Source: Thermoanaerobaculia bacterium (lineage in GTDB: Bacteria; Acidobacteriota; Thermoanaerobaculia; UBA5066; Gp7-AA6). Taken from it: DNA of 64,000 nucleotides. How positions within the stretch are numbered: position 1 is the stretch's first letter; every line of letters begins with the position of its first letter. The position numbers and the translations under genes are program-made. Below the pieces are notes generated by a model. That model ran no database searches and had not been told where the DNA came from. It saw only the letters and a list, made by a program, of their open reading frames with translations. The stretch is taken from NCBI GenBank assembly GCA_041912555.1, contig JAYRMU010000019.1:9119-73118 (forward strand), in the 5' to 3' direction. Below are positions 1 through 48,137 of this stretch, piece by piece.

Positions 1-965
1 CGTGCGGCTATCTCCGCAAGAACTCCGTGCTTCAAACCATGCTCCCGGCTGCCTGGAGCACGGGCCGGCTTACTGTCTACACTGGCCGTAAAGCGCTTCA
101 TCTCGTCGGCGCAACCATGAACGGCAGATTCACCGCCACCGGAGTGCTCGTGCGCTGCCGACAGGAGAGGCTTGGCGGCCACGGGACAATCAAGGGCAAA
201 GCGATAGTTGTGAGTGCGGGAGCTGTCGCGAGTAGCGGGCTGCTCCTTCGGAGCCCGGAGATAGCCTCCAGCGGTCTTCCCATCGGGCATCATTTTGCCT
301 TCAATTTCGGCAGCCCCGTACACGCCGAGTACGACACGCCTCAAAGAGCGTTCGATGGCCTTCAGATCGCCCACTATTATCTTGAGAACCACCCTGACGG
401 CTTCGTGATCGAAACCTGGTTCAACCCACCAGCCACCCAGTCGCTTGCCCTACCTGGATGGATGGATGCCTTTCAGCACAATATCGACCGACTCCAGTTC
501 TACGCCTGCGCGGCGCCGCTTGTGGGGTCCAGCAGCCAGTCTCGAATCACGGCCGTGGGAGACAAAGAGACCATTCACATCGCGCTCGGGGCGAACGACC
601 TGGCTCGGATAAAGGCGGGCCTGTTGATGACGAGCAGGCTCTTCTTCAATTCGAATCCCCCGCCTCGTCGCGTCCTCATCGGGGCACCACGTGACTGGGA
701 GCTCACGCCCGCCACGTACGAGGCGCGCATCAACACAATCGCCAACTTTTCCGACATCCAGATCGGAACAGGTCACCCTCAGGGGGGCAACGGACTGAGC
801 TCCGACCCGAAGACGGGTGTTGTCAGCCCTGAATTCCGCGTACACGGAACCAGAAACGTCTACGCTGCCGACGCCAGCGTGTTTCCAACCAGCCTAGGCG
901 TCAATCCCCACTGGACGATCATGGCGCTGGCCGACCTGGCTGCAACGTCCGTTGCCGGCGCATAG
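1..965 (+). CDS. GMC family oxidoreductase, C-terminal part (5' end outside window)
   Basis: C-terminal GMC-oxidoreductase signature ...VHGTRNVYAADASVFPTSLGVNPHWTIMALADLAA. The reading frame is open to the window edge. Confidence 0.7.
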   Translation, partial: CGYLRKNSVLQTMLPAAWSTGRLTVYTGRKALHLVGATMNGRFTATGVLVRCRQERLGGHGTIKGKAIVVSAGAVASSGLLLRSPEIASSGLPIGHHFAFNFGSPVHAEYDTPQRAFDGLQIAHYYLENHPDGFVIETWFNPPATQSLALPGWMDAFQHNIDRLQFYACAAPLVGSSSQSRITAVGDKETIHIALGANDLARIKAGLLMTSRLFFNSNPPPRRVLIGAPRDWELTPATYEARINTIANFSDIQIGTGHPQGGNGLSSDPKTGVVSPEFRVHGTRNVYAADASVFPTSLGVNPHWTIMALADLAATSVAGA

Positions 966-992
966 CACACCCCAACGAGAAGGAAGGCCATC

Positions 993-1571
993 ATGCCAGC
1001 TGACCCATGGACTTACGACACACTGGCTCAAGCCGATAACGCGACCCTCGAAAGCGTGCTCCTTTCATGCGGACCGCCGGACCCCGAGCAACTCAACGGC
1101 TATATCTACTGCGGCTGGAATCACGAGTGGGCGGCTGGGGTCGTCTCGGGCCAGAAGTTCAAGAAGGCATTCTGGAAAAGGGAGGGCAAGAACTTCGGGT
1201 ACAACGAGGTCGTCATCCAGGACCACAAGAAGTACCAAGGTGAGTGGAAGGTTCAGATGCAGCACGGTCACCCCCATCAGCTTGGCTTCTTCCGAGTTTC
1301 CTTGACCAAGGATGAGCCCCCGGTCCAGCTCTATGAACCGTACCGGCACACAGCCCACTTCAACTACGACCTACCAATGAACGACGGCGTCAATTCGTTC
1401 TTTCGCCTTGTTCGCGATTTCGTTGTCCTTCCAAATCCCGACGACCACACACTCATGCTTTGCAAGGCCTATCTCCACTTCGGGCCCACGAACGATCTTT
1501 TCTACTGCTACTTTCTCCTCGGATATCGCCTTCCAATCACGTTCCCACCGCCATGGGCGTTGCCCACGTGA
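993..1571 (+). CDS. hypothetical protein (co-operonic with GMC oxidoreductase)
   Basis: 192-aa ORF with ATG preceded by an aaggaagg RBS, 28 nt after the upstream stop. No recognisable domain. Confidence 0.5.
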   Translation: MPADPWTYDTLAQADNATLESVLLSCGPPDPEQLNGYIYCGWNHEWAAGVVSGQKFKKAFWKREGKNFGYNEVVIQDHKKYQGEWKVQMQHGHPHQLGFFRVSLTKDEPPVQLYEPYRHTAHFNYDLPMNDGVNSFFRLVRDFVVLPNPDDHTLMLCKAYLHFGPTNDLFYCYFLLGYRLPITFPPPWALPT

Positions 1572-1626
1572 CCGGCGCTCAGAAGGCCCCTGCGCCCGCC
1601 AGGCCTCGCAGGAAGGGGACCCGGAA

Positions 1627-3294
1627 ATGACAGCAGGCCTCACACTGAAGGGTAGCGGTCGAACACGGGTGATCGGCCACTTGGCAGCGCTGCTGTTGGT
1701 ACCTGTGGTCGGTTACGCTCTCCTCCGCTACGCACCAGCACTGGATACCGATTTCGCTGATCGAGTGTTCTGGGTCTTCGCCATTCTTCCGGGCCTCACG
1801 GCAGTCCTCAACTTCCTACTCTCAGTGGATCCTCATTACGAGCTGAGTCGGCGTGCCGTTGAGCCGTACTTGCAGGTTCGTAGACGGCAGATCCGCCTGC
1901 ACGGCGCCGAGCATCAGGGTTGGGAGCGAGCCGTCACTGATATGCGGCCTAGCCTGGCCTCTGTCGTGATTGGAGCAGGTGCACTCACGGTCGTCTTCGC
2001 CCTGCCAGCGGCTCTCTCGTCGCCCCGCCGTCCCTCAAGCCTCGGTTTAGAGCGATCAGGTGCTCCGACCGAACCGTCGCGTACTCCCACCACGACGCCC
2101 ACGGCGCAGCTACTGCACTCGCTAGCTGGCGGCTCTCCTCCGCAGTCACCTACCGGGCCACCCGCCGGGCCAGTAGTGAGCCGCACTGTTACCCCGCAAA
2201 CGACTAGTGCACCCGACGTCCGGACAGGACACGCTCCCACGACATCCGGTCCGATCCTCCAATCCACGGCCGCCGCACCCACGCTGGTAGCGTCCCCGTT
2301 GGATGACTCACGCCCCCTTTCTGACGGCGTGATCGGTCTCGTGTTCGCGGGATACGGCGCGTACGTCTACACGTTTCTTCTCGTGATCGGCCGTCTTAAT
2401 TCGAGCGCCCTGACGGGTAAGTTCCTACTCACCTCATCGATTCGCTCAGGTATTAGCCTTCTCTTAGGGTACGTCGTTGGCGTATTCGGGCTTTTCAGTG
2501 CGATCACAACGCCGAAAGCTAGCCTGTTCTTGTATTTCGCGCTCGGTCTCTTCCCGTCATGGGCCTTGGGCGCACTGCGGAACAAAGCCAAAGAGGTCTT
2601 CCAGCCGGCGGAGACCGGCTGCGAGGTCCTACCCCTCTGCCTCGTAGACGGCGTCGAAGACGGTGTCATCGACCGCCTCGCGGAGATCGGAATTACGGAT
2701 GTAGAGCACCTCGCCACCGCGGAGCCGGTAGAGTTCGCCCTTCGCACTCTCTACCCATTCAACCGCGTTCTTGATTGGGTGGACCAAGCCATCCTAATCA
2801 ACTACGTCAAGCACGCGATCGCGGATTTCCGTCGTCAGGGCATCCGGAGCTCGATCGAGCTCGCGACACTCTACGGAGATGCCACACTCCGGATGGGGAC
2901 CTCTACCGGCGTCAAGCCCTATCCGGCTACAACTGCCGGGCCCTCTGCCACTTCGGAGACATCATCGTCCAACACAGAAGGGCAGCGGCCACCTTCGGAG
3001 AACAACACTCAGGTCATCGACTTGGAGGATTCTGTCGCCCGCCAGACGCGAGCGAAGGCCATCATCACGTCGCTGAGCCAGAAGACCACTTTTTCCGAGC
3101 AGTCGCTCTATGCAATCGGGCGCTCGCTCTTCGAGGACTACCTGGTCAACCGAATTTGGGCATATTGGCAACATGTAGCGGAGGAGACCCGTTCCGCGGG
3201 CGGCGAGCGGCAGCCTGATGGTCAAGCTGCCAGTCGACCGGTCGTAGCAGCGGATACCCAGCAGGTGCAACCAGACGTGAAGCCACAACTCTAG
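1627..3294 (+). CDS. hypothetical multi-pass membrane protein with Pro/Thr-rich linker and unknown C-terminal soluble domain
   Basis: An internal ATG at 1627 follows a ggaagggga RBS. It has several hydrophobic segments, a PT-rich low-complexity linker and a conserved-looking C-terminal region (…LAEIGITDVEHLATAEPVEFALRTLYPFNRVLDW…). Confidence 0.5.
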   Translation: MTAGLTLKGSGRTRVIGHLAALLLVPVVGYALLRYAPALDTDFADRVFWVFAILPGLTAVLNFLLSVDPHYELSRRAVEPYLQVRRRQIRLHGAEHQGWERAVTDMRPSLASVVIGAGALTVVFALPAALSSPRRPSSLGLERSGAPTEPSRTPTTTPTAQLLHSLAGGSPPQSPTGPPAGPVVSRTVTPQTTSAPDVRTGHAPTTSGPILQSTAAAPTLVASPLDDSRPLSDGVIGLVFAGYGAYVYTFLLVIGRLNSSALTGKFLLTSSIRSGISLLLGYVVGVFGLFSAITTPKASLFLYFALGLFPSWALGALRNKAKEVFQPAETGCEVLPLCLVDGVEDGVIDRLAEIGITDVEHLATAEPVEFALRTLYPFNRVLDWVDQAILINYVKHAIADFRRQGIRSSIELATLYGDATLRMGTSTGVKPYPATTAGPSATSETSSSNTEGQRPPSENNTQVIDLEDSVARQTRAKAIITSLSQKTTFSEQSLYAIGRSLFEDYLVNRIWAYWQHVAEETRSAGGERQPDGQAASRPVVAADTQQVQPDVKPQL

Positions 3295-3539
3295 CTTGCG
3301 CGCTAAATGATCACCTGCCCCTCATCGATCATCTTCGGTCCGGCGCGGGTGTACGCCCCGCGTAGACGCCTGAGTCGCCGGACCTCCACGACATCGCGAC
3401 GGCGTTGTGAAGGCCTCCCACTCAGCAACGACTAAAGCATTGATACCATCATACCAAGCAAGGAGTTGGCGCCCGTGACGACAATCATTAGGAGCACTTG
3501 CCACCACACGTTCGCTTACCGAGGCAGTCGGCGCAAGCC

Positions 3540-4169
3540 ATGACGACGACAACGCCGCCAGCCGACAGCCTCCTCGCCAAGTTCGCGCACTGGGCCACGT
3601 TATACGCCGCCTACCTTTACTTGGCTGGCTGGGGTTATCTTCGTACCTACTATCACGTATTTGGAGTGGGCGGCTCCAGCCTTGACATAGGTTTCAATGA
3701 CACCTTGGCGCAGGGGTTCGCGGTCCTGTTTGGTAGCGGATGGGCGCTGTCCCTTATCTACGTCGTGGTGTTTGGTCTCTCTGTCGTGGTCGAGATGACG
3801 GCCCTAGGTCGGCGAACGCTCCTGCGCACAGCTTTACCGACCATCCTCGTCGCCTTCTTTCCCGTGACTTATCTTTTCGCAACGCGAGCAGGGATCGACC
3901 GCGCCAATATCGACCGAGGCCAGCACACTACGCTTCCTAGCATGGCGTTCACGGCCGGAACCTGCGCCTACAACGGCAAGCTGGTCCATCTCAAGGGCGA
4001 TTTACTCTATGTCTACAATCTGGCGTATCTCGGCGTCCCCCACTGCTGTGACGGATGTCCTCTTGACCTTTCGAACACATCGCCCTCTGTTCCGCAACTC
4101 TGGCTCATTCGCGCTGCGGACATCAGAGATGTCCGCGTCATACATTACGCAAAGGAGGTTGCCCCGTGA
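3540..4169 (+). CDS. hypothetical membrane protein (about 4 TM)
   Basis: The ORF has hydrophobic helices. Its stop overlaps the GTG start of the next gene. Confidence 0.45.
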   Translation: MTTTTPPADSLLAKFAHWATLYAAYLYLAGWGYLRTYYHVFGVGGSSLDIGFNDTLAQGFAVLFGSGWALSLIYVVVFGLSVVVEMTALGRRTLLRTALPTILVAFFPVTYLFATRAGIDRANIDRGQHTTLPSMAFTAGTCAYNGKLVHLKGDLLYVYNLAYLGVPHCCDGCPLDLSNTSPSVPQLWLIRAADIRDVRVIHYAKEVAP

Positions 4170-4567
4170 CCAATCCCCGACCCGCACTACTAGCTTGGGC
4201 CCCCATTGGTATCCTGTTCTTGGCCAATGCGGTCTCTCTCGGCGCCATACTTTTCAAAGGAGCGCAACCCGTAAAGATTGGTCTTGGCACGCTTGAGGGT
4301 GGCACGATTCGCTGGACTGACTGCAGCGGTAAGCATCCGGAGTCGTTCCAAAGCCCGCCTTATACTCTTGATCTCGCAGACAACTGCACGGTCGGACCTC
4401 CAGCTTTTGGACTCGAGTGTCAGGGTGAGTCGTGTCGGGTCGTCGATCCGAGTAGGCTCGAGAAGTATGTAACAGGCTTTAAGAAGGGCGACTCAATACA
4501 GTTCCGCATTCAAGACCGGTCCGTCACCTTGACGGGGGGCGGGCACGTGCTGACGATAGATAGGTAG
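4166..4567 (+). CDS. hypothetical protein with N-terminal TM anchor and Cys-containing periplasmic domain
   Basis: GTG start 8 nt after an aaaggagg RBS, overlapping the upstream stop (GTGA). Contains an N-terminal hydrophobic helix. Confidence 0.45.
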   Translation: MTNPRPALLAWAPIGILFLANAVSLGAILFKGAQPVKIGLGTLEGGTIRWTDCSGKHPESFQSPPYTLDLADNCTVGPPAFGLECQGESCRVVDPSRLEKYVTGFKKGDSIQFRIQDRSVTLTGGGHVLTIDR

Positions 4568-4751
4568 CGGGCGTGACATACGTCGGAAGCGAAGCTGGTT
4601 CATCCTAGCGATCCGGACAGGTTGTACTCGGCCGCGGTCGGTCGCCGCGTGCTCGGTTTGGGTGTTCGTAGAAGGCGACTCGAGTGGATGTCTGGCCGAA
4701 GCGTGACGAACGACTCGGCGAGTTAGTGCTATCGATAAGACTATTTGACTC

Positions 4752-4790
4752 CCCTCGGCGAGGCCTGAGCAATCGCATCTCGCCGAGGGA
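4752..4790. terminator. putative bidirectional hairpin between convergent genes
   Basis: Near-perfect ~10-bp stem (cctcggcgag … ctcgccgagg) with a 16-nt loop, in the 245-nt gap between convergent gene ends. Confidence 0.3.
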
Positions 4791-4812
4791 CCGTCTATTG
4801 TTGAAACGCCGC

Positions 4813-7422
4813 CTATGCTGGCCTTGCGGCCGTCGGTCTTACGCGGACAGGTGCCCGAAGTCGATCGAGGGCGACTTTCACCTGGTTGTAGATGCTGACC
4901 GGCAGGCCGGGGGCGACTTCGAGAGTCACCATGAGGGCATACGGTACAGCTGAAGGTAGTGAACTTGAAGCATCGGTCCGACAGTTCACTTGCACCTCGA
5001 TCGTCTCGCCTTCCTCTATCGCCACCGCATCGGTTCCCTCGAGGATTTCATGCTGGAGGGTGCCCCTAGTTACCGTGTCATGGTCGACATCTCGGCGTTT
5101 GAGCCTGAGCTTCTCGGTCGGAGGATCGAACCATAGGTCGGCGATTCGATAGTTTCGATGCCGGGGATTGATCGGTGTGAACCAGGCCAACGTCAAAGAT
5201 AGGCGGCGCCCTATCGCCTGGGCGTGCAGGGCGGGAGGAATTGGAAGTTGATAAACATGCGCCTCGTCAACGCCAAGGTCGCCGCTGCCCAGGAGAATCA
5301 CCCGTTGATCCGTGCACAGCGATCCTCCATCGAAATCTGCTGGACCGTACCCGAGAATCTGAGCACACGCACGCTTTAGGCGCCGCCAGCGCTCCGTGCC
5401 TGTATCGGGGGCGTCAAACACATTCTCGATGAAGGCTTCCCACTCTCCCCAGGAGGCGCCGTGAGCGAGCATTGCTTTGAGGATCACGGCGGCCCTCAGA
5501 TCGCTTAACGCGGCGCCGCCAGGCCCCTCTCGAAGCTGCAGGAGCTCGCCGTGAAATTGCGTTGCTCTGCGTGTCGCGAGAGCAGCAGCATTGCTGGTGC
5601 CGCAAGTTCGCCAAGTGTGGTTCGGAGGGACCGCCCTCCCCCCGGGAGCCGCGACAACCTGGCCGGGCTGGCCGACAGCCTTTAGAATCTCGAACTCAGC
5701 CGCAGTCGATGAGGCCGTCACGAGCTTTTGCGCGTAGAACTGGCGCCCGCCCGGCACTAGGATCTCGGGCTTGATCGCCCGGCGGACACCGCTCGCAACG
5801 GGATTAAGGGGACTTGGAAGAGATGCACCCCTGAACAGATCTAGGAGCCTGCCCGCGCCTGCCGACAGGCCGGCCTGCGAGTGCAGCGAACCCACGGTTA
5901 ATGCGTTAACTGACTCCGCAGGTGCGAGCAGTCGACGCTGAACCCTCTGATGAACAATTGAGCGGAGCACATGAGCGCGCAAATCGGCGTCGGCCATTCC
6001 CACGATCGCTCCCGGCGGAGCTGGAACTGAAAGATCGGCCAGGTGGTTGCCCGCCGAAACGACAAAGAGGACCTGATACCTCCACGCGAGCCAATCGAGC
6101 AGTCGTGCCCACGGTGAAATGTAACGGTCGAAGAGCTGCCAACTGTCGCCGATGCTCAAGTTGATGATCTTGACCGATGGGGCCTCGGCAGGGCGATTGT
6201 CGTCCCCCTCAAAGATCCGCCGCACGGCACGATGTACCAAGTCAACTGGAAGCTCATCCGGCGGAAAGGTCTCCCAGCGCTGTCCATTGAAGTCTGGTTG
6301 ACCGGGGATCATCACGGGACGCACATACACTTTTGAAACCAGGGCTGGTTCTCCGGAGTCCAGCTCGCCACGCGTTATCAGCGACGCCATTGAGGTACCG
6401 TGCCGATGTTCGCCTACCCGATAACTCGCTGCGACCCCGTCCGGGTCGTCCAGAGTCAACCGACCTTGGAGAGCGGCGTGGTTAGCGAGCGGTAGGCCGT
6501 CCAGTAGGGCCGCAATGGGTTCACCGGTTGGCAACGGCAGCTCCGGCACGCCCAACGGTGCAGCTTCCGCTGCTACAAGAAGTGAAGCCTGGCCTTTAGG
6601 GGAAAAGTACTTGACGTCCGACACCCGCAAGAGCTTGGTGTCGGCGCCTCGAGCAATGGCCTCCACGGTCTCGCGCACCACATTGGCCGACAGCTCGATG
6701 ACAACGCCGTGATAATCGATCTCAGGAATTGCAGCATCGGAGATGCATTGCCCGTTGGCATCCGAAACAACGGCCCGAAGCCGAGCGTACGCTGCATTTC
6801 GTGCTTCGCTATCGGAGCGGCACCATAGCTCTGCCTCAAAGCGGATGGCCGGATCGTTCGAGGAGAGGCCTTGCTCCCAATACGCCACGACTCCCGTTGC
6901 GAGCACGCGATCTCGTGGCCCCCATTCGCGTACATCATTCAGGTGCTTAAAGACGTCGGCGAGCGCTCCAAAGCCCCGAGGCAACTTTTCGTCCGCGGAC
7001 CGGACCCAGGCTCTCCACAAAGCCAGTAACTCTCTGTACGCGGTCCGATTGCCGACGACTACGAAAAGGCGACCTGAAACCAGGGGTGCAGCAGTGCCCT
7101 CAAGCAAGAAGCCTGAATCCGGGTCTGCAATATCAACGTCGAAATCGCCAAGCCACTCCATTCCGGGGATCCTCTTGACGACCCGCTGGAAGTCGCTGAC
7201 TGAACCGACGGTCTCCAGGACGATCACCTGCTCGGGGTCGACGCCTCCGGAATCTGCTTGGATCGTGCCGAATCGGTTACCTAGAGATGTGAAGCGCTTA
7301 GCCAGGCGTCGCCGTTGCTCAGCTTGGCTCGGTCGGGGGCCGCGAGGAGTAAAACTCTGAGGGAGTTTCGTTCGGGCTGAGGTGGTTGCGGAGGGAAAGA
7401 CGAGAATTGGCTGGTTTGGCAA
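4813..7422 (-). CDS. S8 family (subtilisin-like) serine peptidase, ietS-like
   Basis: Shows the subtilase catalytic signatures HGTSMASLI (His) and GTSNAAALA (Ser). It is 869 aa and lies directly downstream of an AAA+ ATPase with a 12-nt gap. Confidence 0.75.
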   Translation of the reverse strand: MPNQPILVFPSATTSARTKLPQSFTPRGPRPSQAEQRRRLAKRFTSLGNRFGTIQADSGGVDPEQVIVLETVGSVSDFQRVVKRIPGMEWLGDFDVDIADPDSGFLLEGTAAPLVSGRLFVVVGNRTAYRELLALWRAWVRSADEKLPRGFGALADVFKHLNDVREWGPRDRVLATGVVAYWEQGLSSNDPAIRFEAELWCRSDSEARNAAYARLRAVVSDANGQCISDAAIPEIDYHGVVIELSANVVRETVEAIARGADTKLLRVSDVKYFSPKGQASLLVAAEAAPLGVPELPLPTGEPIAALLDGLPLANHAALQGRLTLDDPDGVAASYRVGEHRHGTSMASLITRGELDSGEPALVSKVYVRPVMIPGQPDFNGQRWETFPPDELPVDLVHRAVRRIFEGDDNRPAEAPSVKIINLSIGDSWQLFDRYISPWARLLDWLAWRYQVLFVVSAGNHLADLSVPAPPGAIVGMADADLRAHVLRSIVHQRVQRRLLAPAESVNALTVGSLHSQAGLSAGAGRLLDLFRGASLPSPLNPVASGVRRAIKPEILVPGGRQFYAQKLVTASSTAAEFEILKAVGQPGQVVAAPGGRAVPPNHTWRTCGTSNAAALATRRATQFHGELLQLREGPGGAALSDLRAAVILKAMLAHGASWGEWEAFIENVFDAPDTGTERWRRLKRACAQILGYGPADFDGGSLCTDQRVILLGSGDLGVDEAHVYQLPIPPALHAQAIGRRLSLTLAWFTPINPRHRNYRIADLWFDPPTEKLRLKRRDVDHDTVTRGTLQHEILEGTDAVAIEEGETIEVQVNCRTDASSSLPSAVPYALMVTLEVAPGLPVSIYNQVKVALDRLRAPVRVRPTAARPA

Positions 7423-7434
7423 ACAATCACTCCG

Positions 7435-8412
7435 TCAACCCCGACGCTTGGTCGGTGTGACCTGCCGCGACCAGGCTGTCATACGTTGCCGAACGATTCT
7501 GGGGATATTCGGTTCAGGCGATTCTAGGACAGCGCGCCGTGAAATGTCGAGAAAGAGATCTTCCACTTCGGAATAGCTGGCGCCTCGTAGGTGATTGGCC
7601 ACGCCGGCCACGTCAACCCTTCCCCGAAGATGCAGCCCGGCTATCAACCCTGAGAGGAAGCGATGCAGTTCCTTTGGGCCTGGAGGAGGCAGGTGAAGGC
7701 GAAGCTGGAATCTTCGCCATACCGCTCGATCGAGGAGTTCGGCGTGATTGGTCGCGGTCACGATCACGACGTGTGCGGGAAGTTGGTCCATCTGAAGGAG
7801 CAGCGTGCTGACAACCCTCTTTATCTCCCCTGTTTCGTGGATATCGCCCCGCTCCTTGCCTACTGTGTCGAACTCATCGAGAAAAAGAACACAGGCTCGC
7901 TGTCTCGCAAAGTCAAAGATCTTCCGTAACCGCGACGCCGTTTCACCTAGATAGCTGCCAATTAGCCCTTCATAACGGACAAGAAGGAGAGGTACCAGCA
8001 GGTCGTGCGCGAGGGCGAACGCAACGCTCGTCTTGCCGTTCCCCGGCGGTCCTACGAGCAACACCCGATGACGAGGAGCCAGGCCGTACGAACGGAGCAG
8101 CTCAGCTCGCTGATGTTCTTCGATGAGTAGGCGGCACTCCTCCAGAGCGTGGGGCGGCAGTACCAGGTCGCTTAGAGACCGCTCAGGATTGATTTCGTAG
8201 AGAAGCTCTTCGATGTTCGAGGGCGATGTGGGTTGCGGTGGGCGAGAGCCACCGGCGCCGTTCGAGAGTGCGGTGGCCAGCTGGTCTGCGAGAATCGTGT
8301 GTTGCTTCCCTCGTTCCTCGGCGATCAGCGCCTCGACCGCGCGGCGAAACCGCGGATCGGGGCTCTGCCGGCCGAATTGGACGAGAGAAACAAGCAAATC
8401 AGAGCGCGCCAT
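7435..8412 (-). CDS. AAA+ ATPase, ietA-like
   Basis: Walker A GPPGNGKT, Walker B VLFLDEFD and a sensor/arginine-finger region. It is paired with an S8 peptidase, the ietAS architecture (Gao et al. 2020). Confidence 0.75.
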   Translation of the reverse strand: MARSDLLVSLVQFGRQSPDPRFRRAVEALIAEERGKQHTILADQLATALSNGAGGSRPPQPTSPSNIEELLYEINPERSLSDLVLPPHALEECRLLIEEHQRAELLRSYGLAPRHRVLLVGPPGNGKTSVAFALAHDLLVPLLLVRYEGLIGSYLGETASRLRKIFDFARQRACVLFLDEFDTVGKERGDIHETGEIKRVVSTLLLQMDQLPAHVVIVTATNHAELLDRAVWRRFQLRLHLPPPGPKELHRFLSGLIAGLHLRGRVDVAGVANHLRGASYSEVEDLFLDISRRAVLESPEPNIPRIVRQRMTAWSRQVTPTKRRG

Positions 8413-8609
8413 GATTTCGAGTCGAGTCGCCTCCTCTCGGGGATTCTACGCTGGCCACGGAACGCTCTGGTGCTAACGGTTCTGAGGCCGCGCCCGCCGC
8501 TGCGCCTCAATCATTCCCGGCGCGTGAGCATCGGTTTGCGGCTCTTTGGCGCTGATGTCTTGCGTCGCGCTCGGGCCGGGACTGGTCATCGGCTAGTATT
8601 CCTTATCCC

Positions 8610-9179
8610 ATGAACGCCGAATGGTCGCTGTCGGAAGCCGCGCGTCTTCTCCGCCAACCTCAGCATCGACTCATCTATTTTTGCGAGAAGAAAGTCGTAG
8701 TCCCTGATTTCGGAGACGCTCATGGCCGAGGGAGCAGTCGGCGATTCTCCTCGCGCAACCTGCTCGAATTCGAAATAGCTCTCAAGCTTCGTGGGCTAAC
8801 CGTGCCAGTTGGCTCGATTGGGGCGATTCTTTATGCGTTGCGAGCCTTCGAGGCAAGAGTCGGGCAGCAGATTCCTGGATTCTCACTGCCGGGCGGATTG
8901 AGAACAGGACGAGCGCCAGATCTCCGCGCCCTTGTGACCGACGAGGGGCGACTGTACTTCTCGCTCGGCAGGGGCTCCGCTAGCTCAAAGCTCTACGGAG
9001 GGGTCGATTTCGCCCAATTGGCTGGCTCGAGACGTACTCGGCGACGATCGAGGGCCCGAACAGGCGGACCGGATTTAGCCCTGCCGGCTTTGCCTGCGGC
9101 GCGATCGGCCGAAATGGCCAAAGCCCGGGTAGAGGTCAGCGTGACCCGAATTGCGAGGGATCTTGATTTGGGGCGGTAG
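8610..9179 (+). CDS. hypothetical protein with N-terminal HTH (excisionase/AlpA-MerR-like)
   Basis: The N-terminus WSLSEAARLLRQPQHRLIYF resembles the excisionase-family HTH_17. The gene lies just upstream of the integrase module. Confidence 0.4.
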   Translation: MNAEWSLSEAARLLRQPQHRLIYFCEKKVVVPDFGDAHGRGSSRRFSSRNLLEFEIALKLRGLTVPVGSIGAILYALRAFEARVGQQIPGFSLPGGLRTGRAPDLRALVTDEGRLYFSLGRGSASSKLYGGVDFAQLAGSRRTRRRSRARTGGPDLALPALPAARSAEMAKARVEVSVTRIARDLDLGR

Positions 9180-9192
9180 GCGTTTCGCTAGG

Positions 9193-9218
9193 TTGCTATA
9201 ATAGACACTGTCTATTAT
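9193..9218 (+). promoter_or_regulatory. extended -10 promoter (TGcTATAAT) overlapping a perfect 10-bp-arm palindrome ATAATAGACA-c-TGTCTATTAT
   Basis: Seen directly in the sequence at 9194-9202 and 9198-9218. The palindrome ends at the ATG of the small ORF preceding the integrase. Confidence 0.45.
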
Positions 9219-9402
9219 GACCGAGAACGAGAATCACCGAGGCGGAACGGTCGGGGAGCCGGACGACCGCAGGGCCTTCCTGGAAGACCCGGCGGTTAGA
9301 GCGCTGCTCGATCACGTGGCCGAAGAGCTGGCGTTCGAATTCGTGAGGCTGATGAGGGGTTCCACCGAGGCGGAGGGCAAACCGAAGGAGGAGAAGCCAT
9401 GA
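9217..9402 (+). CDS. small acidic protein (61 aa) translationally coupled to serine integrase; candidate RDF or regulator
   Basis: Its stop overlaps the integrase ATG (ATGA). It starts within the palindrome. Confidence 0.4.
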   Translation: MTENENHRGGTVGEPDDRRAFLEDPAVRALLDHVAEELAFEFVRLMRGSTEAEGKPKEEKP

Positions 9403-11153
9403 AGGCAGCGATCTATGCGCGGTACAGCTCGGAGAACCAACGGCCAGAAAGTATCGATGACCAGGTGTCCGCGTGCCGGAAGATGGCAGCTGCCCGCGGT
9501 TACGTGGTGGATGATGCACAGATCTACACGGACGTGGCGGCCTCGGGCGCCCGGAAGGATCGAACGGGCCTGAACACTCTCCTGCTGGCGGCAGAACGAC
9601 ACGAGTTCGAAGTCGTTTTGATCGACGATCTCTCTCGGCTGGCGCGGAATACCCTGCTGATGCTTTCAGTCCTCGAGGAGCTGCGGTTTAACGGCGTAAG
9701 AGTGCTCTCGGTGGCGGATGGCCTTGACTCGAATGACGAGGAGGCGAATGTCGGTATTCAGGTGCGCGGGATCTTCAACGAGTTGCAGCTTACCGACCTG
9801 AGGAAGAAGACGTTGAGAGGCCAGATCGGGCAGAAGCAGCGAGGCTTCACCGTCGGGGAATCGACGTTCGGGTTCCAGTCAGTTCCCGTCGGAGCAGTTC
9901 GGATGGACAAGAAGGGGCGGCAAAGACCGGAGGGCTACCGAATGGTAATAGAACCGCGAGAGGCCGCGGTCGTGGTTAGCGTGTTCCGAGAGTTTGCGGA
10001 GGGGCGGTCGGAATCGACGATCGTTCGGCGGCTGAACGAGCAGGGGGTCACCGGCCGTCGATGCTCAAAGGGGTGGTCGGCGTCCACGGTTCACCGGCTC
10101 CTGAGAAACGAGAAGTACGTAGGCCGGTGGATCTGGAATCGGAGCCAGACTCGCCGTGATCCGAAGACCGGCCGCCGCCGACAGTTCCCGAAGCCCGAGT
10201 CGGAGTGGATAACCTCGACGGACGAGACGCTCCGGATCGTGCCGCAGGAGCTGTGGGATCGCGTCCGGAAGCGGCTCGCGGAAGTCGAGAAGACGTGGCC
10301 GTCGAGAAAGGGCGTGAGCGGGTTCCGAGCGCAGACCGGCAGTCGGGTCGTCGAGTATCCCGCCGAACTTCTTTCAGGGGGCATGGTGTGTGGAGTCTGT
10401 GGCGCCGGGATCTCGAAGGTGAGTGGGAAGAGCGGGGGCTACTACGGCTGTTTCGGGGCGGTCAGGGGAAAATGCGAGAATCGGCTTCTCGTTCGACGAA
10501 CCATAGCTGAGCGGATTATCTTGGCTGCCGTCCGCGATGCACTCGTCTCAGCTGAGAACATCGCCTACGTCTTCAAGAGAGTCCAGCAGGAGGTACTGAA
10601 GGCGTCGAAAGAATCGCCGGAGGTGATCCGTCTCAAGGCTGCCGAGCTCGAGGCCGAGGACCGGCGGATTGCGAACTTCGTCGAATTCGTGGCTGAAGGA
10701 AGAGGCAGCCGTACGCTGGCAGAAGCCCTCCTCACGTCCGAGCAAAGGCGCGAGGACCTGAGGTCCGAGCTGGAACTGTTACGGAGGGCCCAGAGCGCGG
10801 TCCACAGCGTTCCCCCGCGCGTCTGGATAGAGCAACGTGTCTCCACCCTCCAGGAGGTCCTGGAGAGGCGCACGGAGCTATCAGCGCGGCTTCTTCGGGC
10901 ACTCCTTGGGAAGATCCGGCTCGATCCGGTCGTCCGAGAAAAGGGCCGCCCGTACTACCGGGCGGTATCGAAGCTCCAAGCCCTGGCTCTTTTCGAGCTG
11001 GGGCCTCCTCCGGAAGGGGGCGGAACCCCAGGTTCGAATGCTTTGCATTGGCGGAGGAGGAGGGATTCGAACCCCCGGTGCCGTTTCCGGCACAGCGGTT
11101 TTCAAGACCGCCGCCATCAACCGCTCGGCCACTCCTCCGGAATTCCAGTGTAG
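9399..11153 (+). CDS. large serine recombinase (serine integrase)
   Basis: N-terminal resolvase catalytic domain (IYARYSSENQ…, catalytic Ser), a recombinase domain and a Cys-rich zinc-ribbon (CGVCG…C…C), followed by a coiled-coil. The 3' end of the ORF runs antisense through the tRNA-Ser gene, so the true stop is uncertain. Confidence 0.8.
   Translation: MKAAIYARYSSENQRPESIDDQVSACRKMAAARGYVVDDAQIYTDVAASGARKDRTGLNTLLLAAERHEFEVVLIDDLSRLARNTLLMLSVLEELRFNGVRVLSVADGLDSNDEEANVGIQVRGIFNELQLTDLRKKTLRGQIGQKQRGFTVGESTFGFQSVPVGAVRMDKKGRQRPEGYRMVIEPREAAVVVSVFREFAEGRSESTIVRRLNEQGVTGRRCSKGWSASTVHRLLRNEKYVGRWIWNRSQTRRDPKTGRRRQFPKPESEWITSTDETLRIVPQELWDRVRKRLAEVEKTWPSRKGVSGFRAQTGSRVVEYPAELLSGGMVCGVCGAGISKVSGKSGGYYGCFGAVRGKCENRLLVRRTIAERIILAAVRDALVSAENIAYVFKRVQQEVLKASKESPEVIRLKAAELEAEDRRIANFVEFVAEGRGSRTLAEALLTSEQRREDLRSELELLRRAQSAVHSVPPRVWIEQRVSTLQEVLERRTELSARLLRALLGKIRLDPVVREKGRPYYRAVSKLQALALFELGPPPEGGGTPGSNALHWRRRRDSNPRCRFRHSGFQDRRHQPLGHSSGIPV
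11049..11138 (-). tRNA. tRNA-Ser (anticodon TGA)
   Basis: Cloverleaf readable on the minus strand: acceptor GGAGGAG/CTCCTCC, anticodon loop cTTGAaa, long variable arm, T-loop GGTTCGAATCC and CCA end. Confidence 0.8.
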
Positions 11154-32964: not shown

Positions 32965-33342
32965 TCAGCGGTTCCCGCCGCCCTCGTCCGGCCCGGCGTC
33001 GGAGGCCTTGTACATGTACTTGATCGAGGCTTTCGGGACGAGCAGGTTCGGGCCGTCGTCGCGGTTCACCTTCAGGCACGCCTTGTCGTACCACTCGATC
33101 CAGCCGTTGAGCTTCTCGCCGTCGTTCAACACGACGACCATCGGCGTCTTGGCCGCCATCTGCTTGAGGTAGTAGTAGCTCTCGGCGTTGGTCTGCTCGG
33201 GGGGGACCTGTTTGCGCTGGGCGAACGAGCGTGTCGGGTAGCGGTCCGCGAGCTCGGCCAGGTTGGGTCGGATCAGCTTGCGGTTCGCGGCAGTCTCGTC
33301 GTCGCTACGGAAGGCACCGCCCGAAGAATTGCGATTGACCAC
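32965..33342 (-). CDS. Sm-like / Hfq-like RNA-binding protein with N-terminal extension
   Basis: The C-terminal segment PMVVVLNDGEKLNGWIEWYDKACLKVNRDDGPNLLVPKASIKYMYK fits the Hfq Sm1/Sm2 pattern ([VI]xxxLxNGxxLxGxI…). Confidence 0.4.
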   Translation of the reverse strand: MVNRNSSGGAFRSDDETAANRKLIRPNLAELADRYPTRSFAQRKQVPPEQTNAESYYYLKQMAAKTPMVVVLNDGEKLNGWIEWYDKACLKVNRDDGPNLLVPKASIKYMYKASDAGPDEGGGNR

Positions 33343-33387
33343 GGCTGTCTCTCTTTGTCCCGGTAAAGGGTGGGACGTCTTGACAGC

Positions 33388-34140
33388 TCAAACAGGCACG
33401 TTCGCCGGAATATTCTGAGCTTTCTTCGGGCCCGCCGCGGCCCGGTCGCCGCCCTCGTCCTCGTAGGCCAGGCAGCACATCAGGCGGCCGCACATGCCCG
33501 AAATTTTGGACGGGTTGAGAGAGAGGTTCTGGTTCTTGGCCATTTTGATGGTTACAGGGTGGAAGGACTTGAGAAAAGTCGAGCAGCAAAGGGTCAGCCC
33601 GCAGGGCCCGATTCCGCCCCGCATCTTGGTCTCGTCCCGGGGCCCGACCTGGCGCATCTCGATGCGGACCGGGTGGGCCATCGCCAGGTCCGAAACCAGC
33701 TTCCGGTAGTCGATCCGCGTCTCGGAAGTGTAATAAACGGTGACCTTTCGGCCGTCGAAGCTCTCTTCGGCCCGCACGAGCTTCATGGCCAGCCGCTTCT
33801 CGTCGGCGAGGGTCCGCGTGTCGCTCAGAAAGCGGCTCTCCCTTGCGACCTTGGCCTTGTACGAGGCGAGATCCGCTTCGCTGGCCACCCGGACGAGCCG
33901 GCGCGAATCGCGCAACTGGCATTGTTTCAGGATCATAGGGCGAAGGTTGACCACCTCGGCGTACTCCATGCCGCCGTCCCCCTCGACGATGACCCGCTGC
34001 TTGCGGGCGACCTCGAGGCCCATGGTGTCGCAGAGGACGCTGCGGCCGTCCTCGTGCTCGTTCATCCGGATGCCGACGTACTGGCCGGGGTTGTATGCGT
34101 TGCCGACCCCGCAACCGCCCCCGCTACCGCAACCGCCCAT
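33388..34140 (-). CDS. PSP1 C-terminal domain protein (RicT/YaaT family)
   Basis: Conserved Cys clusters GIGPCGLTLCCSTFL and GMCGRLMCCL, typical of PSP1/RicT. Confidence 0.65.
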   Translation of the reverse strand: MGGCGSGGGCGVGNAYNPGQYVGIRMNEHEDGRSVLCDTMGLEVARKQRVIVEGDGGMEYAEVVNLRPMILKQCQLRDSRRLVRVASEADLASYKAKVARESRFLSDTRTLADEKRLAMKLVRAEESFDGRKVTVYYTSETRIDYRKLVSDLAMAHPVRIEMRQVGPRDETKMRGGIGPCGLTLCCSTFLKSFHPVTIKMAKNQNLSLNPSKISGMCGRLMCCLAYEDEGGDRAAAGPKKAQNIPANVPV

Positions 34141-34265
34141 GTGAGGACCCCCAAAACCGCGAAATTACCACGGTTCGGCAGGCCTTCCCGGGACCCGGAC
34201 CCCGGGGCTCCGCCGGGAGGCTCGGGAAGGGATGTCCGAACGGCCAGAAAAATGACCTGTCCATC

Positions 34266-34292
34266 TTGACAGGCCGGCTCGAGGTCTATAAC
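34266..34292 (+). promoter_or_regulatory. putative sigma70-type promoter (TTGACA – 15 nt – TATAAC)
   Basis: Hexamers read 35 nt upstream of the ATG at 34329. The spacer is short (15 nt), so confidence is low. Confidence 0.3.
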
Positions 34293-34328
34293 TTTCTTCT
34301 AAATTTCGATCTTGAAAGGCGGATCTCC

Positions 34329-35303
34329 ATGAAGCGTCTCGTCGTGGTCCTCGCGTGCTTCGCCCTTGCGTCGCCGATGCTGGCCGAGAAGAGCCGCCGG
34401 ATAGCGCGGCAGATTTCCAATCCGCTGGCACCGACCGTCGTGACGATCGTCGGGAGCCCGCTGACGATCGACGTCGGAAACGACACCTCGATGCAGGTGT
34501 ACAACACCGCGGTGCCCGGTTCGGGCCAGTACTACCCGCCCGACTGCTCCGCGGGTGAAACCGCCGACTCCGGCGTCTTCGCGTCCATCGGCGGTGTCGT
34601 CTACGGGCCGGATTTCGACAACCATCCATGCGGCTCGGCCTCGAACAGCTACACGGCCTGGACTCCGGTCTCGATGTCTCCCGTGACGGGAACCGGCACG
34701 GCCGGCGACCCGTTCACGGTCGTCATCGTGGCCAACGCCGGCGCCACAGGCGTGGTCCTGACCGAGACGCTGACCTACGTCAACGGCGCCAGCGGCGCGA
34801 CGATCTCCCTCTCCTTCGTGGCTCCGCCGCCGCCGGGACGGCCGGCGGCTCCGAACGCCACCGTCGACGCCTTCGTCGGGTGCGATCTCTATCTGGCGGA
34901 CAGCGACTCTGGATTCTCCTTCGCCAACACGACCGCCGCGGGCGGTCACGGCGCCAGCTCGAACTGCACGCAGCTGCAGTACACGATCTCGTGGAAGGGC
35001 ACGACGCCCGCGACCCAGTACGCGGCCGAGGGCTTTGGCACGATCTGGGACGAGATTTCGGCCGGAGCGCTGAGCAATACGGTCGATCCGACCTGCACGG
35101 ACAACGGCGCCGCCCTCGAGTGGGCAGGCTTGAACGTGGGAGCGGTCCCGGTCGTCATCAGCACGGGCGTGTCGTTCACCGGTCAGGCGATCCCGGTCGC
35201 CGCGGCCGTTCCGGCCCTGTCGACCACCGGCCTCGCGGCCGTGGTTCTTCTGCTTGCCGTGGTGGGTTACGTCCTCGCGAGAAAGTCTTCTCTGGGGGCG
35301 TGA
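34329..35303 (+). CDS. secreted protein with IPTL-CTERM-like C-terminal sorting signal
   Basis: Signal peptide MKRLVVVLACFALASPMLA. C-terminus VPALSTTGLAAVVLLLAVVGYVLARKSS (motif + TM + basic). Confidence 0.55.
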   Translation: MKRLVVVLACFALASPMLAEKSRRIARQISNPLAPTVVTIVGSPLTIDVGNDTSMQVYNTAVPGSGQYYPPDCSAGETADSGVFASIGGVVYGPDFDNHPCGSASNSYTAWTPVSMSPVTGTGTAGDPFTVVIVANAGATGVVLTETLTYVNGASGATISLSFVAPPPPGRPAAPNATVDAFVGCDLYLADSDSGFSFANTTAAGGHGASSNCTQLQYTISWKGTTPATQYAAEGFGTIWDEISAGALSNTVDPTCTDNGAALEWAGLNVGAVPVVISTGVSFTGQAIPVAAAVPALSTTGLAAVVLLLAVVGYVLARKSSLGA

Positions 35304-35765: not shown

Positions 35766-38486
<2,721 letters not shown>

Positions 38487-47252: not shown

Positions 47253-47310
<58 letters not shown>

Positions 47311-47330
<20 letters not shown>

Positions 47331-47556
47331 AGTCCTTGATCGCCGGGAGGCAACTCCCGGCGTTGTCATTTCTAGACCACCTCGGGGTAGGATTTGAACC
47401 TACGAACCCGCCGCACCAGCGGCGGGTAGGTTCGGGCGACGAGCGCGGCCGCAGGCCGCATCGGCGCCAACGCCGGGCGAAGCCCGGCGGTAAATCCTAC
47501 CCCCGCAACCAAGATCCTTTAGCGCCGGGGGGCAACTCCCGGCGTTGTCATTTCTA
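47311..47556 (+). repeat. direct repeat of tRNA-fMet 3' end + terminator (copy 1 47311-47374, copy 2 47492-47556) flanking a ~115-bp insert that contains an inverted tRNA T-arm/acceptor fragment (47384-47413)
   Basis: Read directly from the sequence. The copies are ~90% identical with a small indel. Confidence 0.8.
47341..47373 (+). terminator. rho-independent terminator after tRNA-fMet (cgccgggag-gcaac-tcccggcg + ttgtcatttct)
   Basis: GC-rich hairpin followed by a T-rich tract. Confidence 0.6.
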
Positions 47557-47645
47557 CGGGAAGGCCGCAGGGGCTCGGGCGAAAGGGGGCCGATTTCAGG
47601 ATCGACGCACTGCGGGCCCAGCTCCAAAGCCATCCGAACCCAGCG

Positions 47646-48137
47646 TCAGCCGTACGTGAGATCGGTGCTCTGGCCGACCTCGATGATGTAGCCGTCCGGA
47701 TCGCGTATGTAGCAGCGAATCTCGCCGTACTTGGGTATGGGCGCGGTGATGAACTCGGCTCCTCGACTTTTCCATAATTCGTAGCAGACGTGAATATCCG
47801 CCACGCGCATGTTCAGAAAGCTGTTGATCCTATTTGGGTCTGGGACGCTGAGCGTCACCGTCGGCTTGTCGGGAGTAGGACCGCCTCCGACGTTGAGAAT
47901 CATCCAGATATTCGCAAGCTGAAGGTAGGCGGGTGCGTTGCCGTCACCCATGCTGAGAATGCGGGCGCCGAAGACTTTCTCGTACCAGTGAGCCGATCGG
48001 TTGATGTCGGCGACGGTGAGAAAATGCGCGATGCTGACGCCATCCTTGGGGGGCATCTCATAGGTCTTGTGTTCGACTTGTACGCCGTTCGTTCTTTCGC
48101 TGCCCGTCCTTACGCCGGTGACTCTTGCGTCGCTCAT
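47646..48137 (-). CDS. VOC (glyoxalase/bleomycin-resistance) family protein
   Basis: VOC-type beta-alpha-beta-beta-beta pattern. Lower GC than its surroundings. Confidence 0.55.
   Translation of the reverse strand: MSDARVTGVRTGSERTNGVQVEHKTYEMPPKDGVSIAHFLTVADINRSAHWYEKVFGARILSMGDGNAPAYLQLANIWMILNVGGGPTPDKPTVTLSVPDPNRINSFLNMRVADIHVCYELWKSRGAEFITAPIPKYGEIRCYIRDPDGYIIEVGQSTDLTYG

What the first reader, a model, noticed from the sequence alone, without database searches (positions are those of the whole stretch)
4813..8412. ietAS-like defence pair (AAA+ ATPase + S8 subtilase) on the island
The two-gene ATPase→S8 peptidase architecture with a 12-nt gap matches the ietAS system reported among anti-phage systems (Gao et al. 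2020). Both catalytic cores appear intact (Walker A/B; HGTS…GTSNAA).
Basis: partly seen in the sequence, partly recalled or inferred. Interest (0 to 1): 0.55.

Follow-up and report, generated by a model that had tools for sequence, protein, structure and literature searches.

The report
IetAS ATPase–protease defence/toxin pair
This is an intact two-gene IetAS module (an AAA+ ATPase that restrains a toxic subtilisin-like protease), a known toxin–antitoxin and anti-phage system, carried on a horizontally acquired island in an uncultured acidobacterium; it is a clear but ordinary new member of a known family.

Summary
On the minus strand, ietA (7435-8412, 325 aa) and ietS (4813-7422, 869 aa, TTG start) are separated by 12 nt that carry a GGAG ribosome-binding site.

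PADLOC models call both genes full length: IetA 1.5e-135, IetS 4.2e-285. The active sites are intact and invariant in relatives: Walker A K127, Walker B D179/E180, sensor N222, Arg fingers R233/R234 and a Y-L-G pore loop in IetA; D308/H341/N459/S610 in IetS.

The ATPase-then-protease order holds in 79 of 80 related loci across many phyla, and these often sit beside type I restriction-modification, DrmD-like or Hma defence genes.

The pair lies on a 60% GC island in a 71% GC Thermoanaerobaculia genome. It is next to a serine recombinase and tRNA-Ser.

It belongs to a divergent clade:
- IetA is 36% identical to the pTiC58 founder.
- IetS matches the founder only at profile level, over the catalytic and C-terminal domains.
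- The narrow NCBIfam IteA/IteS equivalog cut-offs are not met.

Most likely function: a toxin-antitoxin-like abortive-infection module that may also stabilise the island. Anti-phage activity has not been tested for this clade.

Verdict: new member of a known kind; modest interest.

The parts
7435..8412 (-). ietA: 325-aa single-domain classic-clade AAA+ ATPase (predicted antitoxin/regulator). Key residues: Walker A K127 (8032-8034), pore-loop Y154-L155-G156 (Y154 at 7951-7953), Walker B D179/E180 (7873-7878), sensor-1 N222 (7747-7749), Arg fingers R233/R234.
   Evidence: PADLOC IetA PDLC04232 E 1.5e-135, residues 1-321 against profile 1-323/330. Pfam AAA 7.5e-30. Best solved relatives are the p97/Cdc48 D2 domain, E 4e-47. 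36% identity to pTiC58 IetA, E 1e-43. Motifs are at least 97% conserved in 78 orthologues. Codon positions verified.
7423..7434 (-). 12-nt spacer CGGAGTGATTGT with a GGAG ribosome-binding site between the ietA stop (TGA) and the ietS start (TTG); consistent with an operon and translational coupling.
   Evidence: Sequence read directly. Relatives also have short or overlapping junctions, mostly -8 to +25 nt.
4813..7422 (-). ietS: 869-aa cytoplasmic S8 (subtilisin-like) serine peptidase (predicted toxin/effector). Layout: conserved N-terminal tail (1-20); two ferredoxin/ACT- or prodomain-like alpha/beta domains (about 62-275); S8 catalytic domain (about 300-690) with D308 (6499-6501), H341 (6400-6402), N459 (6046-6048) and S610 (5593-5595); C-terminal beta-sandwich (about 705-840).
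   Evidence: PADLOC IetS PDLC04233 E 4.2e-285, residues 1-861 against profile 1-850/855. Pfam Peptidase_S8 1.2e-10. Invariant residues in 39 homologues. hhalign to founder IetS: probability 96.2%, E 2.4e-9, columns 307-856 against 289-821, with the catalytic residues aligned. AlphaFold model pLDDT 80.7, pTM 0.87. Foldseek best hits are pro-form subtilases, 3afg_B at E 4e-15. No TM segment or signal-peptide-like stretch. The TTG start is supported by conservation of M1, P5, L7 and P10 in homologues covering 100% of the query.
4747..4795 (-). GC-rich 12-bp hairpin starting about 18 nt after the ietS stop; possible transcription terminator, but without a U-tract.
   Evidence: RNA fold -29.3 kcal/mol, z = -2.28 against shuffles. 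The consensus terminator scan did not flag it, so this is tentative.
8413..8609 (.). 197-nt divergent intergenic region between ietA and the MerR-like gene; presumed promoter region of the operon, but no promoter was identified.
   Evidence: Sequence read. The sigma-70 consensus scan found nothing above chance here.
8610..9179 (+). Island context: 189-aa protein with a weak MerR-type helix-turn-helix; a possible excisionase or regulator of the island.
   Evidence: Pfam MerR_1 E 0.0056, below the cut-off. No PADLOC hit. Not found next to ietAS in other loci.
9399..11153 (+). Island context: large serine recombinase (integrase). The ORF's 3' end runs into the tRNA gene.
   Evidence: Pfam Resolvase 1.5e-26, Recombinase 2.7e-24, Zn_ribbon_recom 5.5e-6.
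11049..11138 (-). tRNA-Ser(tga); the island's integration site (right-hand boundary).
   Evidence: ARAGORN. The GC step occurs here. An independent assembly of the same DNA (Logan SRR26835170) breaks at window position 11078, inside the tRNA.

Best explanation
The locus is an intact two-gene IetAS module. IetS is a cytoplasmic subtilisin-like protease whose uncontrolled activity is toxic. IetA is a hexamer-type AAA+ ATPase translated just upstream from the same transcript, and it keeps IetS harmless in an ATP-dependent way. When a phage (or loss of the element) disturbs this control, IetS is released and cleaves cell or phage proteins. Growth stops and the infection aborts.

Shown here: gene order and coupling; family assignment; intact ATPase, pore-loop and protease catalytic residues; strict co-inheritance of the two genes across phyla; residence on a horizontally acquired island; and defence-gene neighbourhoods in relatives.

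Taken from experiments on other clades: IetS is the toxin and IetA the antitoxin, protease activity is needed for defence, and the phenotype is abortive infection triggered by a phage protein.

My inference: IetA acts on IetS directly. It may engage the conserved N-terminal tail and the prodomain/ACT-like N-terminal module that, in the model, accompanies the catalytic domain much as a subtilase propeptide does.
For: PADLOC IetA 1.5e-135 and IetS 4.2e-285, both full length. IetA is 36% identical to founder IetA. IetS aligns to founder IetS at profile level, 96% probability, through the catalytic and C-terminal domains with D/H/N/S aligned. Walker A/B, sensor-1, Arg fingers and the pore-loop L-G-E-T are at least 97% conserved in 78 IetA orthologues. 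D308, H341, N459 and S610 are invariant in 39 IetS sequences. IetA lies directly upstream on the same strand in 79 of 80 loci from Planctomycetota, Nitrospirota, Acidobacteriota, Chloroflexota, Proteobacteria, Firmicutes and Spirochaetes; the one exception is cut by a contig end. There is no conserved third gene. Flanks hold PADLOC-verified type I R-M, DrmD-like SNF2 and HmaB/C genes in at least 22 of 80 loci. The island signature is clear. Literature: IetS is the toxin and IetA the antitoxin on pTiC58 and SGI1 (PMC5006074; PMC13069673). A mycoplasma AAA-ATPase/subtilisin pair behaves the same way, and deleting the ATPase alone is lethal (PMC8562856). B. cereus ietAS acts by abortive infection and becomes toxic when SPbeta yosG is expressed (bioRxiv 10.1101/2022.08.27.505566). 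Protease activity is required for defence, and an ietA mutant could not be constructed (PMC13069673). Structure: the model resembles pro-form subtilases. IetA resembles the substrate-threading p97 D2 domain.
Against: No member of this particular clade (869-aa IetS with this N-terminal module) is known to me to have been tested against phage. The NCBIfam equivalogs for the tested pair are not reached. The N-terminal roughly 300 residues of IetS have no detectable similarity to the founder. No other recognised defence gene lies on the visible part of this island. [quoted passage not shown] No promoter was identified.
Confidence: 0.8

Rival explanations
1. The pair works mainly as an addiction (post-segregational killing) module that stabilises the integrated island against excision and loss. 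It would do what its homologues do for pTiC58 and for Salmonella Genomic Island 1, rather than act as an anti-phage system. The molecular logic is the same (IetS toxin, IetA antitoxin), but the selected function differs.
For: The operon sits about 1 kb from the island's serine recombinase and next to the tRNA-Ser attachment site. The homologous sgiAT pair was shown to be needed for stable maintenance of an integrative mobilisable island (PMC5006074). IetAS was first found as a plasmid-stability system (PMC13069673). No other defence gene is recognised on the visible island. Relatives are abundant on conjugative plasmids: 602 plasmid records carry an IetA-like gene, 389 of them conjugative.
Against: Relatives of this clade are mostly chromosomal, and at least 22 of 80 loci lie next to R-M, DrmD-like or Hma defence genes. 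Homologues of this island's serine recombinase were found in only 2 of 80 loci; other integrase or transposase families were not surveyed. The two roles are not exclusive, because several TA systems do both.
Confidence: 0.3
2. This is a housekeeping protein-quality-control pair: an AAA+ unfoldase feeding a partner protease, like FtsH, PAN-proteasome or Clp, with no toxin or defence role.
For: IetA belongs to the classic AAA clade, with an intact pore loop like Cdc48, PAN and FtsH. The ATPase-plus-protease pairing superficially recalls AAA+ proteases.
Against: All housekeeping equivalogs score far below their cut-offs, for example FtsH 87 vs 600 bits and PAN 98 vs 500 bits. The genes have foreign composition (GC3 0.63 vs 0.93) and sit on an integrase-bearing island. 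Their distribution across phyla is patchy, and the nearest relatives (61-68% identity) are in Planctomycetota, not Acidobacteriota. Homologues are toxic when the ATPase is removed (PMC8562856).
Confidence: 0.03
3. This is a secreted or cell-envelope subtilase with a dedicated chaperone ATPase, for example for nutrition or for maturing a secreted product.
For: Most characterised S8 peptidases are secreted pro-enzymes. The model's best structural matches are pro-form secreted subtilases.
Against: IetS has no signal-peptide-like or transmembrane segment: maximum 19-residue hydropathy is 1.54 and the N-terminal 30 residues are hydrophilic. The N-terminus is a conserved non-hydrophobic motif, MPxxPILxFP. 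The family-specific HMM assignment is to IetS.
Confidence: 0.02

Closest known systems
IetAS of Agrobacterium pTiC58 (founder toxin-antitoxin pair; ATU_RS23410/23415, fetched as L002)
   Same: The ATPase gene comes first, then the S8 peptidase gene, with a 3-12 nt junction. IetA is about 325 aa and 36% identical. The IetS catalytic and C-terminal domains are homologous at 96% hhalign probability, with D/H/N/S and the C-terminal RG(T/S)(L/V)(Q/H) and V(P/R)YAL motifs aligned.
   Different: Pairwise BLASTP between the two IetS proteins is not significant (E 0.18). The N-terminal roughly 300 residues do not align at all. The founder is plasmid-borne in an alphaproteobacterium, whereas this pair is on a chromosomal island in an acidobacterium. 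The best PADLOC models differ: PDLC02196/02198 for the founder and PDLC04232/04233 here.
Phage-tested ietAS systems (Gao et al. 2020 E. coli system; B. cereus m1293; ECOR52) as represented by NCBIfam NF042959 IteA / NF042956 IteS
   Same: The two-gene architecture and domain content are the same. Both NCBIfam models are the top hits for the window proteins.
   Different: Scores are far below the equivalog cut-offs (219 vs 510 bits; 54.5 vs 900 bits). The IteS profile is 747 positions against 869 aa here. I could not obtain the tested sequences for direct comparison, because the supplement sequences are truncated.
sgiAT (S026/S025) of Salmonella Genomic Island 1 and related enterobacterial plasmid pairs (e.g. 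pBK32533, fetched as L084)
   Same: Both are IetAS homologues carried on an integrative element, and sgiAT's demonstrated role is island maintenance (PMC5006074). The ATPase is 37% identical over residues 1-242.
   Different: It belongs to a different IetS clade: its best PADLOC model is PDLC02198, and it matches PDLC04233 only at 2.5e-24. The host phylum and integrase type also differ.
ietHAS (Liu-DS4; IetAS plus a DrmD-like SNF2 helicase; PMC13069673)
   Same: The IetA and IetS modules are shared. Some relatives of this clade (7 of 80 loci) do have a DrmD-like SNF2 helicase nearby, sometimes directly upstream on the same strand.
   Different: There is no helicase in this window. The gene upstream of ietA is a divergently oriented MerR-like ORF.

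Membership tests
IetAS (PADLOC 'ietAS' / Gao_Iet; AAA+ ATPase + S8 peptidase toxin-antitoxin/defence pair) | Two adjacent co-directional genes, with the ATPase immediately upstream of the S8 peptidase | tested here: met
   ietA 7435-8412 and ietS 4813-7422, both on the minus strand with a 12-nt spacer. The same order is found in 79 of 80 related loci.
IetAS (PADLOC 'ietAS' / Gao_Iet; AAA+ ATPase + S8 peptidase toxin-antitoxin/defence pair) | The ATPase matches an IetA family profile and is homologous to founder IetA | tested here: met
   PDLC04232 E 1.5e-135, full length. 36% identity and E 1e-43 to pTiC58 IetA.
IetAS (PADLOC 'ietAS' / Gao_Iet; AAA+ ATPase + S8 peptidase toxin-antitoxin/defence pair) | The peptidase matches an IetS family profile and is homologous to founder IetS | tested here: met
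   PDLC04233 E 4.2e-285, full length. hhalign to pTiC58 IetS gives probability 96.2% and E 2.4e-9 over the S8 and C-terminal domains only. Pairwise BLASTP is not significant, so homology to the founder is partial: the N-terminal third is not shared detectably.
IetAS (PADLOC 'ietAS' / Gao_Iet; AAA+ ATPase + S8 peptidase toxin-antitoxin/defence pair) | Intact catalytic residues (Walker A/B in IetA; Asp/His/Ser triad in IetS). Protease activity is reported as required for defence. | tested here: met
   K127, D179/E180, N222 and R233/R234 are conserved. D308, H341, N459 and S610 are invariant and aligned to the founder.
IetAS (PADLOC 'ietAS' / Gao_Iet; AAA+ ATPase + S8 peptidase toxin-antitoxin/defence pair) | IetS is toxic and is neutralised by IetA | not testable with these tools
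   Known only from homologues (PMC5006074, PMC8562856, PMC13069673).
IetAS (PADLOC 'ietAS' / Gao_Iet; AAA+ ATPase + S8 peptidase toxin-antitoxin/defence pair) | Confers phage resistance (abortive infection) | not testable with these tools
   Shown for other clades (bioRxiv 10.1101/2022.08.27.505566; PMC13069673). Here there is only indirect support from defence-gene neighbourhoods in relatives.
NCBIfam equivalogs NF042959 (IteA) / NF042956 (IteS): the narrow subfamily of the phage-tested pair | Whole-protein score at or above the curated cut-off (510 and 900 bits) | tested here: not met
   219.1 and 54.5 bits. The founder pTiC58 pair scores 198.8 bits with no IteS hit, and an E. coli plasmid pair scores 201.6 and 89.3 bits. 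These also fail, so this excludes membership only of the narrow equivalog, not of the IetAS family.
ietHAS (three-gene variant with SNF2 helicase) | A DrmD-like SNF2 helicase gene in the operon | tested here: not met
   No helicase lies within or next to the operon, and the neighbours have no PADLOC hits.
Housekeeping AAA+ proteases/unfoldases (FtsH, PAN, Cdc48, ClpX) | Score at or above the NCBIfam equivalog/subfamily cut-off | tested here: not met
   FtsH 87.5 vs 600 bits; PAN 97.7 vs 500; CDC48 85 vs 802; ClpX 20 vs 359.

The most novel reading that the evidence does not exclude
In this clade IetS may be a permanently tethered cytoplasmic zymogen. A tandem ACT/prodomain-like N-terminal module and a conserved N-terminal tail (MPxxPILxFP) would dock on the catalytic body and auto-inhibit it. 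IetA would then be more than a passive antitoxin: a threading AAA+ motor that grips this tail, so that a phage cue (or a small-molecule ligand of the ACT-like domains) switches it between holding and stripping the inhibitory module. That would give a concrete, testable mechanism for a defence family whose mode of action is still unknown.
Probability: 0.15. Interest if true: 0.6.

Novelty: new member of a known kind. Interest (0 to 1): 0.3.

Why it matters
The result adds a confidently assigned IetAS system to an uncultured, high-GC acidobacterial lineage (Thermoanaerobaculia). It shows the module arriving on a tRNA-integrated island whose nearest relatives are planctomycete, which illustrates cross-phylum traffic of defence and addiction cargo.

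It also flags that public annotation of this same DNA truncates IetS and misses IetA, so automated defence censuses that start from those gene calls would overlook the pair.

At family level, the mechanism of IetAS is unresolved. The pro-subtilase-like architecture and the strictly conserved pore loop of IetA seen here suggest specific mutants to test.

None of this is surprising to a specialist. A standard PADLOC run would report the system.

Tried and rejected
- **Solved structures by sequence.** The search with IetS found nothing at E <= 0.01.
- **Promoter and terminator scans.** The consensus scans were not above chance. Only a hairpin after ietS is noted.
- **Island left end.** I searched for the att repeat (the tRNA 3' segment). 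It is absent from window 1-11000 and from the 5.2 kb further left in L003. The island is therefore longer than 16 kb and its left border is unknown.
- **A conserved third gene.** None of the window's neighbouring ORFs recurs in 80 related loci, and no flank cluster exceeds 11 loci.
- **Phage-tested sequences.** I tried to obtain the B. cereus ietAS sequence for direct comparison, but the supplement text is truncated. Gao 2020 and Yamamoto 2009 are not held in the library.
- **N-terminal 296 residues modelled alone.** The model was poor (pLDDT 62.7). Its fold matches to tandem-ACT proteins are weak (E about 1e-3, TM 0.2-0.3), so the ACT/prodomain-like label is tentative.
- **Carriage on phages.** The clade is rare on viral contigs: 7 loci among 2.9 million.
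- **Rejected readings.** Housekeeping protease-chaperone and secreted subtilase; see the rival explanations.
Full report
**What is there.**
The minus strand carries two back-to-back ORFs. ietA runs 7435-8412 (ATG start, TGA stop, 325 aa) and ietS runs 4813-7422 (TTG start, TAG stop, 869 aa). They are separated by 12 nt, CGGAGTGATTGT, which contain a GGAG ribosome-binding site. Homologues covering 100% of the query conserve M1, P5, L7 and P10, so the TTG start is correct. A GC-rich 12-bp hairpin follows the ietS stop at 4747-4795 (dG -29.3, z -2.3). No promoter could be called.

**Family assignment.**
- PADLOC-DB gives IetA PDLC04232 at E 1.5e-135 (residues 1-321 against profile 1-323/330). It gives IetS PDLC04233 at E 4.2e-285 (1-861 against 1-850/855).
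- Pfam sees only the generic AAA (7.5e-30) and Peptidase_S8 (1.2e-10) domains.
- In NCBIfam the top hits are the IteA and IteS anti-phage equivalogs, but far below their cut-offs: 219 vs 510 bits and 54.5 vs 900 bits. All housekeeping AAA families (FtsH, PAN, Cdc48, ClpX) are further still from theirs.
- I fetched the founder pair from pTiC58. IetA is 36% identical (E 1e-43).
- The two IetS proteins show no significant pairwise similarity. A 39-sequence profile of the window's clade does align to founder IetS with 96.2% probability (E 2.4e-9). The alignment runs from the catalytic Asp to the C-terminus and pairs D308, H341, N459 and S610 with the founder's catalytic residues.
- The founder pair and an E. 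coli IncC/IncFII plasmid pair also miss the NCBIfam cut-offs. Those equivalogs therefore describe one narrow clade.
- Conclusion: the window pair is a bona fide IetAS member, but in a clade of its own. Its N-terminal third of IetS is not recognisably shared with the founder.

**Integrity of the active sites.**
- In IetA, these features are at least 97% conserved among 78 orthologues: Walker A GPPGNGKT (K127), pore-loop-1 Y154-L155-G156, Walker B D179/E180, sensor-1 N222 and the second-region-of-homology arginines R229/R233/R234. Y154 itself reaches only about 60%.
- The closest solved relatives of IetA are the D2 rings of p97/Cdc48 (E 4e-47). These are substrate-threading hexamers.
- In IetS, D308-G309, H341-G342-T343, G458-N459 and G608-x-S610-N611 are invariant in 39 homologues of 43-68% identity.
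- IetS has no hydrophobic signal or membrane segment, so it should be cytoplasmic.

**Architecture of IetS.**
- An AlphaFold model built from the 39-sequence alignment is confident (pLDDT 80.7, pTM 0.87).
- Foldseek's best PDB matches are subtilases solved with their propeptides: ProN-Tk-SP 3afg at E 4e-15, PCSK9, and Pro-Tk-subtilisin. Weaker sub-domain matches go to tandem ACT/ferredoxin-like regulators.
- The secondary structure shows two beta-alpha-beta-beta-alpha units (about 62-141 and 161-257), then the S8 core, then a C-terminal beta-sandwich (about 705-840).
- Modelled alone, the N-terminal 296 residues are less confident (pLDDT 62.7). They again match tandem-ACT proteins, but only weakly.
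- Residues 1-20 have pLDDT about 83 in the full-length model but about 30 in the isolated fragment. This suggests the conserved tail packs against the catalytic or C-terminal body. The caveat is that the second alignment was shallower.

**Conservation of the pair and its context.**
- A scan of one genome per species found at least 569 loci encoding relatives. Among the 80 best, from at least ten phyla, IetA lies directly upstream on the same strand in 79. The exception is truncated by the contig end.
- None of the window's other ORFs recurs near these loci, and no third gene is conserved.
- The recurrent neighbours are PADLOC-verified defence genes: type I R-M subunits, a DrmD-like SNF2 helicase (as in the published ietHAS variant), and HmaB/HmaC. 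They occur in at least 22 of 80 loci.
- The clade is rare on viral contigs (7 loci). IetA-like genes are common on plasmids, many of them conjugative.

**The island and its host.**
- Positions 1-11048 are 60.4% GC (ietAS GC3 0.63), against 70.8% (GC3 0.93) for the rest of the window.
- The island ends at tRNA-Ser(tga), 11049-11138. A large serine recombinase (9399-11153) and a weak MerR-like ORF (8610-9179) lie between the tRNA and ietA.
- An independent assembly (Logan SRR26835170) is identical over window 1-11078 and stops inside the tRNA. It shows the island continuing at least 5.2 kb to the left, with a GMC oxidoreductase and a patatin-like protein. None of these genes hit PADLOC.
- The enolase at 36715-38088 is 88-94% identical to proteins labelled Thermoanaerobaculia. 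The nearest IetS relatives (61-68%) are from Phycisphaerales and Planctomycetota. This indicates cross-phylum transfer.

**How it most likely works.**
Evidence from homologues:
- The protease is toxic and the ATPase neutralises it on pTiC58 and SGI1 (PMC5006074; PMC13069673).
- The same holds in mycoplasmas, where loss of the ATPase alone is lethal (PMC8562856).
- The B. cereus system aborts infection and turns toxic when phage SPbeta yosG is expressed (bioRxiv 10.1101/2022.08.27.505566).
- Protease activity is needed for defence, and ietA mutants cannot be built (PMC13069673). The same paper states that the anti-phage mechanism is unknown.

Combining this with the intact threading-type AAA+ and the pro-subtilase-like IetS, I propose the following. 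IetA hexamers hold IetS inactive through ATP-dependent engagement. A phage trigger, or loss of the island, releases IetS. IetS then degrades essential proteins. Because the pair sits beside the integrase, an island-stabilising addiction role, as shown for sgiAT on SGI1, is a serious and compatible alternative.

**Verdict.**
The locus is a new member (divergent clade) of a known system. A standard defence-finder run would report it, so interest is modest. Its main value is contextual: host lineage, island transfer and defective public annotation. It also yields a structural hypothesis for a family whose mechanism is still open.

Noticed in passing
window 4813-8412 (same DNA in public records): Public gene calls for this exact locus are defective. 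The NCBI product identical to IetS is only 782 aa, missing the conserved first 87 residues. The Logan contig's gene calls omit ietA entirely and list two antisense ORFs in its place. The exact 325-aa IetA sequence is not in the 15-billion-protein collection.
   Followed up: partly
window 9399-11153 and 11049-11138; L003 1-30: The serine recombinase ORF reads about 100 nt into tRNA-Ser(tga). An independent assembly breaks at window 11078 inside the tRNA, which marks the attachment site. The island's left end lies beyond the window and beyond a further 5.2 kb; no repeat of the tRNA 3' segment was found.
   Followed up: partly
window 4670-4688 and 8417-8435: A 19-nt imperfect inverted repeat (84% complementary) brackets the ietAS operon almost exactly. 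It is probably chance, since four comparable pairs occur in 12 kb, but it could mark a cassette boundary.
   Followed up: no
L010, L015, L037, L041, L064, L068, L071 (flanks of ietAS relatives): Seven relatives of this clade have a DrmD-like SNF2 helicase nearby. In L010 it is directly upstream on the same strand, resembling the published three-gene ietHAS variant. Five loci have HmaB/HmaC and twelve have type I R-M subunits.
   Followed up: partly
L003 10114-15324 (island DNA left of window position 1) and window 27-4567: The rest of the island encodes a GMC oxidoreductase, a patatin-like phospholipase (Pfam 6.5e-10) and several ORFs with no Pfam or PADLOC match. Two of the latter look membrane-embedded from the sequence by eye. 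Their function is unknown.
   Followed up: partly
window 33000-35000 and 47300-50500: Two further low-GC patches (0.60-0.66 against about 0.71). The second starts right after tRNA-Met (47254-47330). From the sequence by eye it holds glyoxalase-like, alpha/beta-hydrolase-like and hemerythrin-like ORFs, with no integrase seen.
   Followed up: no
window 7363-7422 (IetS residues 1-20): The conserved N-terminal tail of IetS is modelled confidently only when the whole protein is present (pLDDT about 83 against about 30). This hints that it docks on the catalytic or C-terminal body.
   Followed up: partly
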